Source: a virus. Taken from it: a stretch of 64,000 nt of DNA. The stretch is taken from positions 9,836 to 73,835 of the IMG/VR virus record IMGVR_UViG_3300037420_001954; one strand, written 5' to 3'. Below are positions 10,274 through 54,081 of this stretch, piece after piece. A program made the translations under genes and the position numbers. The notes beneath the pieces were generated by a model, which was given only the letters and a program-made list of their open reading frames with translations, did no database searches and was not told the DNA's origin. Position 1 is the stretch's first letter. Each line of letters starts with the position of its first letter.

Positions 10274-11613
10274 TAGATGGTGGGCTTCTTGCCCGTCTCG
10301 GGATCAGAGAAGACGAGCGTGCCTAGCCGAATGAGCTCGAGGCTCGTCGTGGTGCCGCCGCTGCGCGACTTGTTGAACGTGCGAGAGAGGATGTAGAGAA
10401 TCTCGTGAAGGCCGGAGACCTCGTCCTCGACCTCGACGGTCATGTCCGGAGTCCAGACTAGGAATTGCCCGTCCTTGGAGAACTGGCCGTGTCCTTCGAC
10501 GGTGAAGTTGGCAGTCAGCGACTTTCGCTGAAGCAGTGCCATTTCGCGTCGAACGAAATTCTCGAGGTGTTCTTGCGTCGCCGATTCGTCGTCGTGCAGG
10601 TAGAGGATCCGGTGCCTCGGAACCACCATGACGTTCTCGAACGGGAAGTCCTGTAGCTTGAGGACTGTCGCGCCAGCGTCGATGTACTTTTGATACGGCG
10701 GCTTGTTGTTCTTGATGAGCTCGCTGTCCTCAACACGAACGGCAGCGTTCAAGAAAATCGTCTTCACTCGGCCGGGCCCAAACTCACCGCCGCGAGAATA
10801 GGAGTCCGCGATGATGGCAGTCGGTTGCTCGGCGACAGACGCCGTCACCGTACCATCGAGCACGTTCGTTTGAGGCTTTCCGTCAAGCCCGTTCGACTTA
10901 TTTCGATAGAGCTTGAACGGGGCGTCCTTGTTGAACGTGTTCGGTGGCGAGACGATGATCTCGCTCCCGTCAGAAGACGTCCAAAGCCAGAGCCCGAAGC
11001 GCTGCGTGATGCGCGCTGCGAATTCAAACGCGGACTCGCGAGGGTACGGACGCGTCTGGTGGACCTTGTATTCTTTCAGTGCACGACGAGAGAATCCCTT
11101 ACCGTCCGACGTATTTCGTTTTGCCCGAAACGCGTTCGAGCGCACATCGAGGTCAGCGTCGTTCGAGATGACGAATTGTTCCGGCTTTTCCCAACCGAAT
11201 GGGGCGAAAATGGTTTTCAGAGCCTCAGCGAGCGTCTGGCCTTCTTTCAAAGCCATCGTCGGATCAGCGCAGGTGTCGCAAGCCTGAGCGAACGAATCTC
11301 GTCCTTCGATCCGCCATACCGAACCAGAATCCCTAGAGGCCGACGCTGCTACGGAATCGATGTAGCCCGTAGACTGCACGTTTCCGTTCAACAGAAGCTG
11401 GACACGGGCTCCGGCTTTCAACCCATCACGCTGCTCATCTGACAGCCGTTCATCGCCAATCGAGAACGAGAATCCGTCGGTCGGCGTGAGGAAGTGGGAA
11501 TTGAAGCTGTACTCGGTGAAGTTCGTAATCGTGAGGGGGCCGTTCGCTGCGTCCGGAAGTAGAAGCTGGATCTCTTCTTGTTCCGGCGCACTCGGCGAGT
11601 ACGTCGTAGGCAC
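10273..11613 (-). CDS. Baseplate hub/tail protein (Mu gp44/P-like)
   Basis: FTEYSFNSHFLTPTDGFSF, GYID.V, IEGRD, PRESAFEFAARITQRFG, WTPDMTVEVEDEVSG. Confidence 0.85.
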   Translation of the reverse strand: MPTTYSPSAPEQEEIQLLLPDAANGPLTITNFTEYSFNSHFLTPTDGFSFSIGDERLSDEQRDGLKAGARVQLLLNGNVQSTGYIDSVAASASRDSGSVWRIEGRDSFAQACDTCADPTMALKEGQTLAEALKTIFAPFGWEKPEQFVISNDADLDVRSNAFRAKRNTSDGKGFSRRALKEYKVHQTRPYPRESAFEFAARITQRFGLWLWTSSDGSEIIVSPPNTFNKDAPFKLYRNKSNGLDGKPQTNVLDGTVTASVAEQPTAIIADSYSRGGEFGPGRVKTIFLNAAVRVEDSELIKNNKPPYQKYIDAGATVLKLQDFPFENVMVVPRHRILYLHDDESATQEHLENFVRREMALLQRKSLTANFTVEGHGQFSKDGQFLVWTPDMTVEVEDEVSGLHEILYILSRTFNKSRSGGTTTSLELIRLGTLVFSDPETGKKPTI

Positions 11614-51549: not shown

Positions 51550-51885
51550 CCACAAAGACTCTTGGTCAGCGGTGCGTTCGTGGCTAGCCCACGATCGAGG
51601 ACCATCGAAACGGGAATAGAGCATCTGCAAACCCGTTAGCGCGACGAGCCCGCGTAGATGACCCAACGTCAGGGGACTAGGCTCGCGACGAGACAGCCGG
51701 AGAGACGGCGCTAATCCAACAAGACTTTCACCGCCGGCCCGTCAGGGCTCAGGGACTCGTGCCCGGTGCGGTGTGACAGCCGGAAAGACGGCGCGCTTCC
51801 ACGCGGAGCCACCTGGGGCATTGACCTGGGCCGAAAGGAGCGTTTACGGGGATGAGCTGAGATGGAAGGACCCGCCCAGTTTCGC
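51550..51885 (+). ncRNA. Candidate structured non-coding RNA upstream of tRNA cluster
   Basis: No convincing ORF; duplicated GACAGCCGGA(G/A)AGACGGCGC hairpin (51692-51711 and 51775-51794); nested stems CGAGCC/GGCTCG and CACCGC/GCGGTG. Confidence 0.5.
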
Positions 51886-51887
51886 GA

Positions 51888-51967
51888 AGGGGGCAGTCCG
51901 CGAGCCGAAAGGCCGTACAGCGCCGGGTTGAAAGCCGGAGTACGTGGTTCGATTCCACGGTCCCCGA
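51888..51967 (+). tRNA. Atypical tRNA-Phe(GAA)-like gene
   Basis: GGGGGC/GTCCCC acceptor, CGTGG-TTCGATT-CCACG T arm, TT-GAA-AG loop; irregular anticodon stem and enlarged D region. Confidence 0.45.
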
Positions 51968-52000
51968 CAAACGATAGTACGAGCGCTCGTACTTCGTCAG

Positions 52001-52065
52001 TCCTAGGTCTTCTAAAGGCAGGATGCCGCGATTCGGCGACGTCGGTTCGAATCCGGCCCTAGGCA
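52001..52065 (+). tRNA. tRNA-like gene with 5-nt anticodon loop (no canonical anticodon)
   Basis: CCTAGG/CCTAGG acceptor, TTCT/AGGA D arm, GCCG-CGATT-CGGC, GTCGG-TTCGAAT-CCGGC. Confidence 0.55.
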
Positions 52066-52069
52066 ATTA

Positions 52070-52154
52070 GCCAGTCTGACGGAATAGCAGACGTAGCGGC
52101 CTTAGAAGCCGCCGGCCGATTGTGGTCGTGCAGGTGCAAGTCCTGCGACTGGCA
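52070..52154 (+). tRNA. tRNA-Leu(TAG)
   Basis: GCCAGTC/GACTGGC acceptor, GCGGC-CTTAGAA-GCCGC, long variable arm, GCAGG-TGCAAGT-CCTGC, A73. Confidence 0.92.
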
Positions 52155-52234
52155 CGAGGGTGTTGTCCAAGGTTCGAGTCCTTGGCGTCGGGCCGAAAGT
52201 CCGGCGTGGCGGAAGGGGATACGCGCACCCGTTA
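52155..52234 (+). ncRNA. Circularly permuted tRNA-like RNA (3' half precedes 5' half)
   Basis: GGGTG-TTGTC-CAAGG TTCGAGT CCTTG-GCGTCGGGC-CGAAA-GTCCGGCGT-GGCG GAAGGGGATA CGC-G-CACCC. Confidence 0.7.
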
Positions 52235-52328
52235 GGGCGAGAGCTTGAAGGAAGCGACCCGATTCCAAGTCGGGAGAGCGTGGAAGAAAAGCCCACGTGA
52301 CGAGGACGTTCGATTCGTCCCTGGCCCG
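52235..52328 (+). tRNA. tRNA-Trp(CCA)-like gene with long variable arm
   Basis: GGGCGAG/CTGGCCC (one mismatch), GCTT/AAGC D stem, CCCGA-TTCCAAG-TCGGG, CGTGG/CCACG variable arm, GGACG-TTCGATT-CGTCC. Confidence 0.65.
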
Positions 52329-52331
52329 CGA

Positions 52332-52649
52332 ATGTTTGGACCGACCCCGTTTAGTCCCCTGAACACGCCCAATTCGTACGCCGGCTCGCTCGGCGCGCGC
52401 TCGACCAAAAAGGACCCCGAGGACGATATCGAGCACCCCGAACCGCCGCCGATCTGGAAGCAGGTCGCGACCATCGTGGCGCTTCATGGACTTATCGCGA
52501 CGGTCGAGACGCTTGGTCGTCGACTGATTCATCGGCTCTTTGACGGGCCCGAGGGGCCGAAGGCCGAGGGGTCGCAGCCCATGATCATGATGCTCGCGCC
52601 GGACGAAGAGCACAAAGACGAGAAAGAGGACAAGGAAGAAAGCGAATGA
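52332..52649 (+). CDS. Hypothetical protein
   Basis: ATG just after the tRNA; 105 aa with an acidic tail. Confidence 0.55.
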   Translation: MFGPTPFSPLNTPNSYAGSLGARSTKKDPEDDIEHPEPPPIWKQVATIVALHGLIATVETLGRRLIHRLFDGPEGPKAEGSQPMIMMLAPDEEHKDEKEDKEESE

Positions 52650-52840
52650 GCGACATGAAAATGGAAGAGATCACTGAAGTGACTATGACCTTGGTATTCG
52701 ACGTGAACCACAACACGTCAATTCGCGAACTCCAGGAGATCATGGAGACGTTCAAGAAAGCGGATCTCGACGTCGACTGCCAGTTCCGTACTGATGCGTG
52801 CTCTATCGAAGTATCTTCCGTACCGACTGAGGTGTGCTAG
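52646..52840 (+). CDS. Hypothetical acidic protein
   Basis: 64 aa, coupled. Confidence 0.6.
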   Translation: MSDMKMEEITEVTMTLVFDVNHNTSIRELQEIMETFKKADLDVDCQFRTDACSIEVSSVPTEVC

Positions 52841-54081
52841 TGACCGAGTTCCACGTCGAGGCCGTTCGCATCGGTGCAGTCTACAAGCACCCGAACGCCG
52901 ACTCGCTCTCCATCACGAACGTCTACGCGTCGCCGGACGGCTCGGGCGGGTATCCGGTCATCTTCAAGACCGGCGACTATGCGGAGGGGTCACTCGCGGT
53001 TTATGTGCCGGTCGATGCCGTCGTCCCCGAGACGCCCGAGTGGTCGTTCCTTTGGGGCAACGAGCAGAACCCGCCGCCACGTAAGCGCCGCATCAAGGCC
53101 AAGAAGCTTCGTGGCGTGTTCTCGATGGGCGTCCTGACCGCCGCGCCTGCCGGCGTGACCGAAGGCCAAGACGTCGCCGAGCTGCTCGGTATTACGCGCT
53201 ACGAGGACGAGGCCGAAGTCGCCGAGCGCAGCGCGGTGATCAAGCGCGGACGACAGCCGAAGCTCGGTTGGTGGGGCCGTCTCAAGCGGTCGGTGCTCAA
53301 TCTGCTCGGTCTTTACCGCGAGCCTGGCACGCCCCAGCACGGCCTCCCCGCGCCCAAGCTGAAGCACCTCCCAGGCTACTACGACATCGAGCCGTTCCGA
53401 AAGTACGCGGGCTCGTGGTTCGAGGACGGCGAAGAGATCGTCATCACGGAAAAGATCCACGGTCAGAACGCGTCGTTCGTGGTCGATTACGACGGCAAGT
53501 TCCACCTCAAGTCGCGTACCCGCTGGCGTGAGTTCACGCCTGACGAGCCGTCGAACGCGTGGGCGCGCGTCGCGGCGAACTACGGCCTGCCTACGAAGCT
53601 AGCGCCGTGGCCTGGGTACATCCTTTACGGCGAGGCGTACGGCAACTTCTCCGACTGCCCATACGGCGCCACGAACGAGGCCCCAGGCTTCGTCGCCTTC
53701 GACGTGTTCGACTCGAACAAGGGCCGTTGGCTGAGCTGGGACGAGTTCGTCGAGTTCTGCCGGATCACGCGCATCGACCACGTGCCGGTGCTCGCGAAGA
53801 CGACGTGGCTCGAGGCCGACGGGGCCGCGACCTACGCGCCGCTTGCGGAAGGCAAGACCACGCTCAACGACGCGGGCCACGTCCGCGAAGGATTCGTGAT
53901 CAAGCCGCGCTCGGGCCGATGCCTGCGATCGGGGCAACGCATCGTGCTCAAGATGCACGGCGAGGGATTCCTCACTCGAGACGAATCCAAGACCAAGGCG
54001 CCGAAGCCCCAAAAGGCGAAGGCGCCGCGGGTCGCGCCGCTGCCCGACCCGAACACGACCGAGTTCGCACTGGCGGCGTGA
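52834..54081 (+). CDS. ATP-dependent RNA ligase (Rnl2/DRB0094-like, N-terminal OB-fold)
   Basis: HPNADSL N-terminus; ITEKIHGQN (motif I), LYGEAYG, FVAFDV, REGFVIK, LKMHGEGFL. Confidence 0.92.
   Translation: MLVTEFHVEAVRIGAVYKHPNADSLSITNVYASPDGSGGYPVIFKTGDYAEGSLAVYVPVDAVVPETPEWSFLWGNEQNPPPRKRRIKAKKLRGVFSMGVLTAAPAGVTEGQDVAELLGITRYEDEAEVAERSAVIKRGRQPKLGWWGRLKRSVLNLLGLYREPGTPQHGLPAPKLKHLPGYYDIEPFRKYAGSWFEDGEEIVITEKIHGQNASFVVDYDGKFHLKSRTRWREFTPDEPSNAWARVAANYGLPTKLAPWPGYILYGEAYGNFSDCPYGATNEAPGFVAFDVFDSNKGRWLSWDEFVEFCRITRIDHVPVLAKTTWLEADGAATYAPLAEGKTTLNDAGHVREGFVIKPRSGRCLRSGQRIVLKMHGEGFLTRDESKTKAPKPQKAKAPRVAPLPDPNTTEFALAA

What the first reader, a model, noticed from the sequence alone, without database searches (positions are those of the whole stretch)
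52155..52234. Circularly permuted tRNA between two tRNAs, near a phage RNA ligase
Seen: between tRNA-Leu (discriminator 52154) and the Trp-like tRNA (start 52235) lies an 80-nt segment with tRNA parts in permuted order. The order is anticodon-stem 3' strand GGGTG, variable loop TTGTC, T arm, an acceptor helix closed by a CGAAA loop, D arm, then anticodon-stem 5' strand CACCC. Joining the leftover flanks (GTTA 52231-52234 + CGA 52155-52157) gives exactly a 7-nt loop GT-TAC-GA with U33 and purine 37, i.e. anticodon UAC (Val). Known: RNase Z leaves a 5'-P on the downstream fragment and RNase P leaves a 3'-OH on the upstream fragment, which are the ends an Rnl2-type ligase joins; permuted tRNA genes maturing through a circle are known in red algae and archaea; bacterial YrlA Y RNAs also mimic tRNA with a loop-closed acceptor stem. 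Inference: either a phage tRNA whose anticodon is created by ligation (ligase gene about 600 nt downstream) or a tRNA-mimic/decoy. Caveats: G32 is unusual, Val identity base A73 is absent, the T/acceptor register has one extra pair, and no Ro60 gene is visible.
Basis: partly seen in the sequence, partly recalled or inferred. Interest (0 to 1): 0.9.

Follow-up and report, generated by a model that had tools for sequence, protein, structure and literature searches.

The report
Permuted tRNA-shaped RNA between phage tRNAs
An 80-base stretch wedged exactly between two tRNA genes of a phage folds into a complete tRNA whose parts are encoded in rotated order. It is conserved in one related phage, and is more likely a tRNA look-alike RNA than a working tRNA that an RNA ligase has to stitch together, although that exciting reading is not excluded.

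Summary
Window 52155-52234 encodes, in order, the anticodon-stem 3' strand, variable loop, T arm, loop-capped acceptor helix, D arm and anticodon-stem 5' strand. When the segment is circularised in silico, ARAGORN calls tRNA-Val(UAC).

One true homologue exists, L005:2850-2930. It is also wedged exactly between two tRNAs, but different ones, and keeps the same 3+4-nt overhangs. All 22 pairs are kept and 7 have compensatory changes. Seven other assemblies carry an identical copy.

The ligation model rests on thinner ground than it looks:
- The CGA and TTA overhangs are generic trailer and leader motifs of these tRNA arrays.
- The rebuilt loop has a purine at 32 and G37, both rare in phage tRNAs.
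- The ligase sits beside tRNA arrays in six relatives that lack the element.
- Loop-capped permuted tRNA-like modules of the YrlA kind are common in phages. This scan has met them in dozens of other genomes.

The element is not a YrlA member: it has no handle, no Ro60 gene and no RF02553 match.

My odds:
- tRNA mimic released by RNase Z and RNase P: about 0.5.
- Genuine ligase-matured permuted tRNA-Val: about 0.25.
- Ligase-sealed circle or similar: about 0.12.
- Relic: about 0.05.

A junction read joining 52234 to 52155 would decide between them.

The parts
52070..52154 (+). tRNA-Leu(UAG), canonical. Its discriminator A52154 sets the 5' end of the element if RNase Z cuts after it.
   Evidence: ARAGORN; Rfam RF00005 47.7 bits at 52070-52154
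52155..52157 (+). 5' overhang CGA. It would be C36 G37 A38 of a rebuilt anticodon loop. It is also the commonest trailer motif after tRNAs in these arrays.
52158..52162 (+). Anticodon-stem 3' strand GGGTG (positions 39-43). It pairs with 52226-52230.
   Evidence: L005 has GGGAG/CTCCC, a compensatory change.
52163..52185 (+). Variable loop TTGT, then the T arm CCAAGG-TTCGAGT-CCTTGG. The stem is 6 bp here and 5 bp in L005.
52186..52206 (+). Acceptor helix of 8 bp (CGTCGGGC/GTCCGGCG) closed by the pentaloop CGAAA (52194-52198).
   Evidence: Four of the 8 pairs changed on both sides relative to L005.
52207..52225 (+). U8 G9, the D arm (GCG-GAAGGGGATA-CGC, with G18 G19) and G26.
52226..52230 (+). 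Anticodon-stem 5' strand CACCC (positions 27-31).
52231..52234 (+). 3' overhang GTTA. It would be G32 U33 U34 A35. TTA is also the commonest leader motif before tRNAs in these arrays.
52235..52328 (+). Class-II tRNA-like RNA with a CCA anticodon. Its +1 base, G52235, sets the 3' end of the element if RNase P cuts there. It is followed by CGA and then the ATG of the next ORF.
   Evidence: MFE cloverleaf, z -2.6. Homologue at L105:2197-2291. Not called by ARAGORN or Rfam.
52332..52840 (+). Two small ORFs of 105 aa and 64 aa with no known family, lying between the array and the ligase. No + strand terminator-like site in between.
52834..54081 (+). ATP-dependent RNA ligase: N-terminal OB domain plus nucleotidyltransferase domain (DRB0094/Naegleria Rnl5-like).
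   Evidence: PF09414 3.6e-29 and PF21189 8.5e-10; TIGR02306 89 bits, below its cut-off; nearest solved structure is the N. gruberi RNA ligase

Best explanation
The segment is a tRNA-shaped non-coding RNA built like the tRNA-like module of bacterial and phage Y RNAs (YrlA). Its order is variable loop, T arm, loop-capped acceptor helix, D arm, closed by a 5-bp helix formed from its own two ends. It lacks the Ro60-binding handle.

It is transcribed as part of the tRNA operon. It would be freed by the enzymes that mature its neighbours: RNase Z after the tRNA-Leu discriminator (52154) and RNase P before G52235. This would yield an 80-nt RNA with a 5'-phosphate and a 3'-OH. That step is inferred from known enzyme chemistry.

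With a sealed acceptor end and no continuous anticodon loop, it would not decode. It would instead present a tRNA elbow and acceptor/T stack to tRNA-binding proteins, acting as a decoy or scaffold. Candidate partners are host tRNA-targeting defence nucleases or the co-transcribed ligase. This function is inferred and not shown. On this reading, the anticodon-like 3+4-nt overhangs are the ordinary trailer and leader spacers of this phage group's tRNA arrays.
For: 1. The structure is conserved as a shape. Between the window and L005, all 22 pairs are kept and 7 changed on both sides, against at most 1 in slid controls.
2. Features that matter to a decoding tRNA have drifted. These are the extra T-stem pair, the bulge or G.G mismatch in the L005 acceptor, U1.G72, C73 and the atypical D loop in L005.
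3. The CGA trailer and (T/C)TA leader recur at ordinary tRNA junctions of the clade. The window's own tRNA-Leu leader is AATTA. L105's Trp-like tRNA keeps ATTA with no permuted element upstream.
4. The rebuilt loop has a purine at 32 in both homologues and G37. These occur in 4.5% of all and in 3.6% of the NNC-anticodon tRNAs among 772 phage tRNAs.
5. The same architecture with a GAAA-type acceptor cap is common in other phages. L101, L150, L163, L172, L144, L151, L158 and L183 score 20-39 bits on model R2.
6. L101 is a YrlA-like RNA (RF02553, 22.6 bits) that sits flush between two tRNAs. So release of a mimic by neighbour-tRNA processing has a parallel.
7. The arrays of this clade carry other non-tRNA passenger RNAs: a head ncRNA and the X3 rod hairpin.
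8. Six relatives have the ligase beside a tRNA array but lack the element: L087, L089/L098, L090, L092 and L105.
Against: - The overhangs are exactly 3 and 4 nt in both lineages, although the flanking tRNAs differ (Leu and Trp-like against Tyr and Ser). Internal indels have occurred over the same divergence, and the overhang of another passenger RNA (X3) drifts by 1 nt between closer relatives.
- The joined loop has U33, a purine at 37 and the same UAC in both.
- No handle, no Ro60 gene and no partner protein have been identified, so the proposed decoy function has no direct support.
- The re-permuted RNA passes ARAGORN as well as the linear tRNAs of the same arrays.
Confidence: 0.5

Rival explanations
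1. A genuine circularly permuted tRNA-Val(UAC) gene.
1. RNase Z (after Leu A52154) and RNase P (before G52235) excise an 80-nt RNA. Its 5'-P (C36) and 3'-OH (A35) ends are held together by the 5-bp anticodon stem.
2. The co-transcribed Rnl5-type ligase seals 35|36 and so creates the anticodon.
3. RNase P, with RNase Z or exonucleases, opens the acceptor cap.
4. CCA is added, and the tRNA reads the rare GUA codon.
For: - The geometry is exact and is kept in two lineages with different neighbours. Loops are G/A-U-UAC-G-A, 7 nt with U33 and R37.
- Compensatory changes occur in the anticodon, acceptor and D stems.
- ARAGORN passes the re-permuted RNAs up to 112% and 103% of its thresholds. Linear tRNAs of these arrays pass at 103-118%.
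- The ligase lies in the same transcription direction with no terminator-like site between.
- No RtcB or AAA_33 kinase-type end-healing domain was found in the record, so the ligase needs ready 3'-OH/5'-P ends.
- The closest relative without a ligase (L097) also lacks the element.
- GTA (88 codons) is as rare as CTA (82), which the adjacent tRNA-Leu(UAG) serves.
- The cap reads like a normal inter-tRNA spacer: C73, then CGA, then AAG, then N1.
- 2 of 15 phage tRNA-Val(UAC) genes have G37.
Against: - The overhang sequences are generic spacer motifs.
- A purine at 32 together with G37 is jointly rare.
- The acceptor is weak or bulged in L005, and both copies have U1.G72 and C73.
- Rnl5-type enzymes are known as duplex-nick sealers (family knowledge), not anticodon-loop sealers.
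- Ligase and array sit together without the element in six relatives.
- There is only one independent homologue.
- No linear tRNA with this anticodon arm was found in IMG/VR or the GTDB genomes.
- Any capped tRNA-like module gives ARAGORN calls when circularised at suitable cut points: 425 of 2247 cuts of L101.
- No permuted tRNA is known in bacteria or their phages.
Confidence: 0.25
2. A ligase substrate that stays a mimic. The excised nicked tRNA-shaped RNA is sealed by the phage ligase into an 80-nt circle, or stays as a nicked tRNA analogue bound to the ligase. The acceptor cap is never opened. The stable, exonuclease-resistant tRNA-shaped circle acts as a decoy or as a regulator of the ligase.
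For: - The excised RNA would carry the 5'-P and 3'-OH ends an ATP-dependent ligase needs, juxtaposed by a 5-bp stem.
- The tight 8-bp helix, closing C-G pair and C-N-AAA pentaloop are conserved in both homologues. This suggests the cap is kept rather than discarded.
- The N-terminal OB domain of the ligase has a weak similarity to the tRNA_bind domain: E 0.042 here and 1.9e-5 in relative P0039, both below the Pfam cut-off.
Against: There is no direct evidence of any kind. Circular tRNA-shaped decoys are not known. The same objections to ligase specificity and ligase synteny apply as for the permuted-tRNA model.
Confidence: 0.12
3. A non-functional relic of a tandem tRNA duplication, in which the outer halves were deleted and the 3' half plus 5' half remain.
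For: Tandem duplication followed by loss is the accepted origin of permuted tRNA genes. The cap resembles an inter-tRNA spacer.
Against: - The element is conserved between phages whose ligase and helicase are only 56-60% identical, with 7 compensatory pair changes and no broken pair.
- The ends are exact in two different array contexts.
- The sequence is identical in seven independent assemblies.
Confidence: 0.05

Closest known systems
YrlA-type bacterial and phage Y RNAs (Rfam RF02553; Chen et al. 2014, PMC4201824)
   Same: - The tRNA-like module is encoded in the order variable region, T arm, loop-closed acceptor stem, D arm, with the RNA's own ends where the anticodon arm would be.
- Canonical T loop and G18 G19.
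- M. smegmatis YrlA, which has a 7-bp acceptor, is even cut by RNase P and receives CCA.
   Different: - No long terminal helix and no GNCGAAN0-1G Ro60-binding motif near the 5' end.
- No TROVE/Ro60 gene in the 81.9-kb record.
- No RF02553 hit at E<=10.
- The ends are set by flanking tRNAs and leave 3+4 unpaired bases that read as an anticodon loop.
Circularly permuted tRNA genes of Cyanidioschyzon merolae, green algae, Thermofilum pendens and the prasinovirus BpV1 (PMC3673656 for the virus)
   Same: - The 3' half is encoded upstream of the 5' half.
- A short intervening sequence joins the acceptor ends.
- The re-permuted sequence is a complete cloverleaf.
- The proposed route goes through a circular intermediate opened by RNase P and tRNase Z.
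   Different: - Those genes use a bulge-helix-bulge motif cut by the splicing endonuclease, and an RtcB-type ligase.
- Here there is no such motif and the setting is a bacteriophage.
- Excision would rely on neighbouring tRNA processing, and the junction would fall inside the anticodon (35|36).
- Function as a tRNA is unproven.
Phage T4 tRNA repair (Pnkp plus Rnl1) and DRB0094/Naegleria Rnl5-type RNA ligases
   Same: A phage ATP-dependent RNA ligase encoded beside tRNA genes. The chemistry joins 3'-OH to 5'-PO4. T4 Rnl1 seals a break in a tRNA anticodon loop.
   Different: - The ligase here is Rnl5-like (N-terminal OB domain), not Rnl1.
- No end-healing kinase/phosphatase was found.
- Its substrate is unknown, and the same ligase sits by tRNA arrays that lack the element.

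Membership tests
Circularly permuted tRNA gene (algal/archaeal type) | 3' half upstream of 5' half on one strand, with the acceptor ends joined by a short intervening sequence | tested here: met
   Sequence read. ARAGORN on the doubled segments of the window and L005 calls tRNA-Val(tac).
Circularly permuted tRNA gene (algal/archaeal type) | Bulge-helix-bulge motif formed by the transcript termini, for the splicing endonuclease | tested here: not met
   The stem is 5 bp, followed by unpaired CGA and GTTA that abut complete tRNAs. The next potential pair is A.G (A.A in L005).
Circularly permuted tRNA gene (algal/archaeal type) | The re-permuted sequence is a canonical tRNA with a normal anticodon loop | tested here: inconclusive
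   It passes ARAGORN at up to 112% and 103% of thresholds, like linear tRNAs, with a 7-nt loop, U33 and R37. But purine-32 (4.5%) and G37 (3.6% of NNC anticodons) are rare in 772 phage tRNAs, and both copies have U1.G72 and C73.
Circularly permuted tRNA gene (algal/archaeal type) | A circular intermediate and a mature, chargeable tRNA exist | not testable with these tools
   Needs RNA data.
YrlA / bacterial Y RNA (RF02553) | tRNA-like module in the order V, T, capped acceptor stem, D | tested here: met
YrlA / bacterial Y RNA (RF02553) | Terminal helix carrying the GNCGAAN0-1G Ro60-binding motif near the 5' end (PMC4201824) | tested here: not met
   No helix beyond 5 bp. GCCGAAAG occurs only in the acceptor cap of the window copy, and L005 has GCCTAAAG there. 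The control L101 has GCCGAAG at its 5' end.
YrlA / bacterial Y RNA (RF02553) | Ro60/Rsr (TROVE) gene within about 4 kb on the same strand | tested here: not met
   PF05731 is absent from the whole 81.9-kb record, which is 80% complete. The control genomes gave hits.
YrlA / bacterial Y RNA (RF02553) | Covariance-model score reaching the gathering score of 69 bits | tested here: not met
   No match at the element at E<=10. The L101 Y-like RNA reaches 22.6 bits.
DRB0094 / Rnl5-type RNA ligase (for gene 52834-54081) | N-terminal OB domain plus RNA-ligase nucleotidyltransferase domain with the motif I lysine | tested here: met
   PF21189 and PF09414. E206-K207-x-H209-G210 is invariant in 24 homologues. 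The nearest solved structure is the N. gruberi ligase.
DRB0094 / Rnl5-type RNA ligase (for gene 52834-54081) | NCBIfam TIGR02306 equivalog cut-off (151 bits) | tested here: not met
   89.4 bits: a divergent phage branch with an insert of about 70-100 aa between the domains.

The most novel reading that the evidence does not exclude
A bacteriophage encodes a circularly permuted tRNA-Val(UAC) whose anticodon does not exist in the DNA. RNase Z and RNase P, while maturing the two neighbouring tRNAs, release an RNA whose ends meet between positions 35 and 36. The phage's own ATP-dependent RNA ligase joins them, and the acceptor cap is then opened and CCA added. This would be the first permuted tRNA in the bacterial world, and a splicing-endonuclease-free route to one. 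It would also give stand-alone phage Rnl5-type ligases a physiological substrate.
Probability: 0.25. Interest if true: 0.92.

Novelty: new variant of a known kind. Interest (0 to 1): 0.58.

Why it matters
On the conservative reading, the tRNA-like module of Y RNAs can exist on its own. It needs no Ro60 and no handle, and can travel as a passenger in a phage tRNA operon, cut out by the host's tRNA-processing enzymes. That widens the family of phage tRNA mimics and hints at partners other than Ro60.

On the ligation reading, it would be a new way to make a tRNA and a concrete job for a widespread phage RNA ligase of unknown role.

The two readings make sharply different and cheap-to-test predictions. 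One junction-spanning read or one divergent RT-PCR would decide. The junction 18-mer, GCACCCGTTACGAGGGTG, is absent from the phage genome, so it can serve as a clean marker.

Tried and rejected
**Searches for more homologues**
- Exact and degenerate DNA patterns in IMG/VR gave 0 hits.
- The same in JGI metagenomes gave 4 hits, none permuted.
- The same in GTDB genomes gave 14 hits, all chance matches in coding DNA.
- 80 IMG/VR loci that encode the ligase, and 50 of their whole records, were scanned with covariance models. Only unrelated Y-like modules and tandem-tRNA junctions matched.
- Contigs of the closest ligase and helicase relatives and of the 105-aa ORF's relatives yielded only L005 and seven identical copies.

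**Readings rejected**
- Assembly artefact: identical sequence in seven independent assemblies.
- Junction of two tandem identical tRNAs: the neighbours are complete, different tRNAs.
- tmRNA or two-piece tmRNA: ARAGORN -m finds none.
- YrlA membership.

**Statistics I stopped relying on**
- The ARAGORN call on the doubled segment is not a strong statistic on its own. It is specific against random sequence. However, any capped tRNA-like module yields calls at many cut points.
- The GCCGAAAG cap matches the letters of the YrlA Ro60 motif. I judged this coincidental, because the position differs and L005 lacks it.

Full report
**What is there.** The window is part of an 81.9-kb IMG/VR phage contig with 62% G+C. 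Positions 51565-52331 form a non-coding array. It holds a roughly 300-nt structured head RNA, a Phe-like tRNA with an aberrant D region, a small cloverleaf, a canonical tRNA-Leu(UAG) at 52070-52154, the 80-nt element at 52155-52234, and a class-II tRNA-like RNA with a CCA anticodon at 52235-52328. Two small ORFs follow directly, then an RNA ligase gene (52834-54081) and a helicase gene. No terminator-like site lies on the + strand between them.

The element reads as follows:
- CGA
- GGGTG
- TTGT
- CCAAGG-TTCGAGT-CCTTGG
- CGTCGGGC-CGAAA-GTCCGGCG
- TG
- GCG-GAAGGGGATA-CGC
- G
- CACCC
- GTTA

When the segment is joined head to tail, ARAGORN calls a 74-nt tRNA-Val(tac) across the junction. The call is specific against background. 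Of 6392 doubled tiles of the window, one unrelated tile gave a junction-spanning call. None of 147 other tRNA-adjacent positions in 100 loci did. The minimum-energy fold reproduces the outer stem, T arm and capped acceptor. Seven independent assemblies carry the identical sequence, so it is not an assembly artefact.

**One true homologue.** Contig L005 has a ligase 56% identical and a helicase 60% identical to the window's. It carries an 81-nt element at 2850-2930. Rfam ends tRNA-Tyr at 2849 and ARAGORN starts tRNA-Ser(CGA) at 2931, so the element lies exactly between them. When doubled, it too is called tRNA-Val(tac). Its overhangs are CGA and ATTA.

On the model-based alignment, all 22 pairs are standard in both sequences. 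Seven pairs changed on both sides: one in the anticodon stem, four in the acceptor and two in the D stem. Slid controls give at most one such pair. One T-stem pair is deleted on both sides. The fold is therefore under selection, and the 3+4-nt overhangs survived a change of both neighbouring tRNAs.

One caveat applies. The Rfam tRNA-Sec model starts the L005 downstream tRNA at 2930, with an 8-bp acceptor. If that is right, the overhang would be one base shorter.

**What speaks for a ligase-made tRNA.**
- RNase Z leaves a 5'-phosphate on the trailer and RNase P leaves a 3'-OH on the leader (established enzymology). The excised RNA would therefore be a ready substrate for an ATP-dependent ligase.
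- The record has no RtcB and no AAA_33 kinase-type end-healing domain.
- The rebuilt loop has 7 nt with U33 and R37.
- The re-permuted RNAs pass ARAGORN at up to 112% and 103% of its thresholds. Linear tRNAs from the same arrays pass at 103-118%.
- GTA is as rare in the phage's genes (88 codons) as CTA (82), which the adjacent tRNA-Leu serves.
- The closest relative by helicase (L097, 85% identical) lacks both the ligase and the element.
- RNase P can open a loop-closed 7-bp acceptor, after which CCA is added. This was shown for M. smegmatis YrlA (PMC4201824).

**What speaks against it.**
1. The overhang letters are not special to the element. CGA directly follows the discriminator of many ordinary tRNAs in this clade: the window's Trp-like RNA, L097's last tRNA-like RNA, the L087 Ser and odd Leu-like tRNAs, and the L105 Tyr-like and Trp-like RNAs. 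(T/C)TA directly precedes many +1 bases: the window's Leu, L105's Leu, L087's Tyr and, tellingly, L105's Trp-like RNA, which has no permuted element upstream.
2. Both homologues have a purine at 32, and both have G37. Among 772 ARAGORN-called phage tRNAs in the fetched loci, purine-32 occurs in 4.5%, and G37 in 3.6% of those with NNC anticodons. However, 2 of 15 tRNA-Val(UAC) genes have G37.
3. The acceptor end is poor for a decoding tRNA. Both copies have U1.G72 and C73, and L005 has a bulge or a G.G mismatch. Meanwhile the 8-bp helix with its C-G-closed C-N-AAA pentaloop is conserved.
4. The ligase sits next to tRNA arrays in six relatives that lack the element (L087, L089/L098, L090, L092, L105). 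The synteny is therefore general and not tied to the element.
5. Loop-capped permuted tRNA-like modules are common in phages. Model R2 finds them at 20-39 bits in L101, L150, L163, L172, L144, L151, L158 and L183. L101 is a YrlA-like RNA (RF02553, 22.6 bits) with GCCGAAG near its 5' end and an 18-bp handle. It sits flush between tRNA-Cys and tRNA-Arg.
6. Circularising L101 at arbitrary cut points gives ARAGORN tRNA calls for 425 of 2247 cuts. The ARAGORN call is therefore no proof of a real tRNA.
7. No linear tRNA with this anticodon arm exists in IMG/VR or the GTDB representative genomes.
8. Earlier follow-ups in this scan reached the mimic verdict for similar 'permuted tRNAs' in dozens of other genomes. 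I treated this as a lead and not as evidence.

**Family membership.** The element is not a YrlA member. It has no terminal handle and no Ro60-motif at its 5' end. The record has no TROVE gene. There is no RF02553 hit at E<=10. It also lacks the bulge-helix-bulge motif of the algal and archaeal permuted tRNA genes. The only viral precedent I found for a permuted tRNA is a eukaryotic prasinovirus (PMC3673656). No bacteriophage case turned up.

**Weighing.**
- The exact geometry, kept in two lineages, favours the ligation model by perhaps two orders of magnitude.
- The atypical loop and acceptor features count against it by a similar factor.
- The prior then decides, and it favours the abundant mimic class over an unprecedented pathway.

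My resulting odds are: tRNA mimic released by neighbour processing about 0.5, real ligase-matured tRNA-Val about 0.25, sealed circle or ligase-bound analogue about 0.12, and relic about 0.05. The rest is unassigned.

**Shown and inferred.**
- Shown: the anatomy, the conservation with covariation, the exact abutment in two contexts, the family of the ligase, and the absence of Ro60, RtcB and YrlA matches.
- Inferred: cleavage by RNase Z and RNase P at 52154|52155 and 52234|52235, co-transcription with the ligase, and any function.

Noticed in passing
window 51565-51712 (continuing to about 51880); L105:1390-1550; L099:243-392: A conserved structured RNA heads the tRNA array in three phage lineages, running from GGTCAGCGG to GACAGCCGGAGAGACGGC. 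No Rfam family matches it.
   Followed up: partly
window 52235-52328; L105:2197-2291: A class-II (long variable arm) tRNA-like RNA with a CCA (Trp) anticodon, conserved in L105, where position 33 is A. ARAGORN and Rfam do not call it. Its identity could be Ser- or Leu-like, which would mean recoding of UGG. L087:907-985 is the converse: a class-I body with a CAA (Leu) anticodon.
   Followed up: partly
window 52328-52334; L097:238-243; L105:2291-2297: The first ORF after the array starts 3 nt after the discriminator of the last tRNA-like RNA (N|CGA|ATG), and this is conserved in three lineages. RNase Z cleavage would leave a nearly leaderless mRNA for the ligase operon.
   Followed up: no
window 51889-51966; L097:1-53: A Phe-like tRNA (GAA). 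Its D arm is replaced by a GAAA-capped hairpin, and its anticodon loop appears to have 8 nt. It is conserved almost identically in L097.
   Followed up: no
L105:2096-2196; L097:56-155; L087:~986-1095: X3, a conserved rod-like hairpin RNA of about 90 nt. It is closed by CATGTGA/TCACGTG, sits between a tRNA and the Trp-like tRNA, and starts with the CGA trailer. No Rfam match; fold z -2.7 and -1.9.
   Followed up: partly
L101:1473-1603 (- strand), jumbo phage IMGVR_UViG_3300033233_000001: A YrlA-like RNA (RF02553, 22.6 bits) with GCCGAAG near its 5' end, an 18-bp handle and a GAAA-capped tRNA-like module. It sits flush between tRNA-Cys and tRNA-Arg in a 16-tRNA array.
   Followed up: partly
L150:812-1264; L172 (- strand) around 10466-10620: Tandem sets of two or three capped, permuted tRNA-like modules in other phages. 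Some lie next to real tRNAs, with overhangs that do not sum to 7.
   Followed up: partly
L096:218-340 (also L094:562-690 - strand, and L095 around 1540-1666): A tRNA gene in normal order (acceptor GCCGCTG...CGGCGGC-ACCA) interrupted by about 55 nt in the anticodon region, inside a large phage tRNA array. ARAGORN does not call it.
   Followed up: no
L005:2930-3015: The tRNA with a CGA anticodon downstream of the L005 element scores above the gathering score on the Rfam tRNA-Sec model (50 against 47 bits). The reason is a possible 8-bp acceptor and a long variable arm.
   Followed up: no
L099:1313-3985: The helicase orthologue in one relative is 890 aa and carries a Hint/intein-type insert (faint PF07591 hit).
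   Followed up: no
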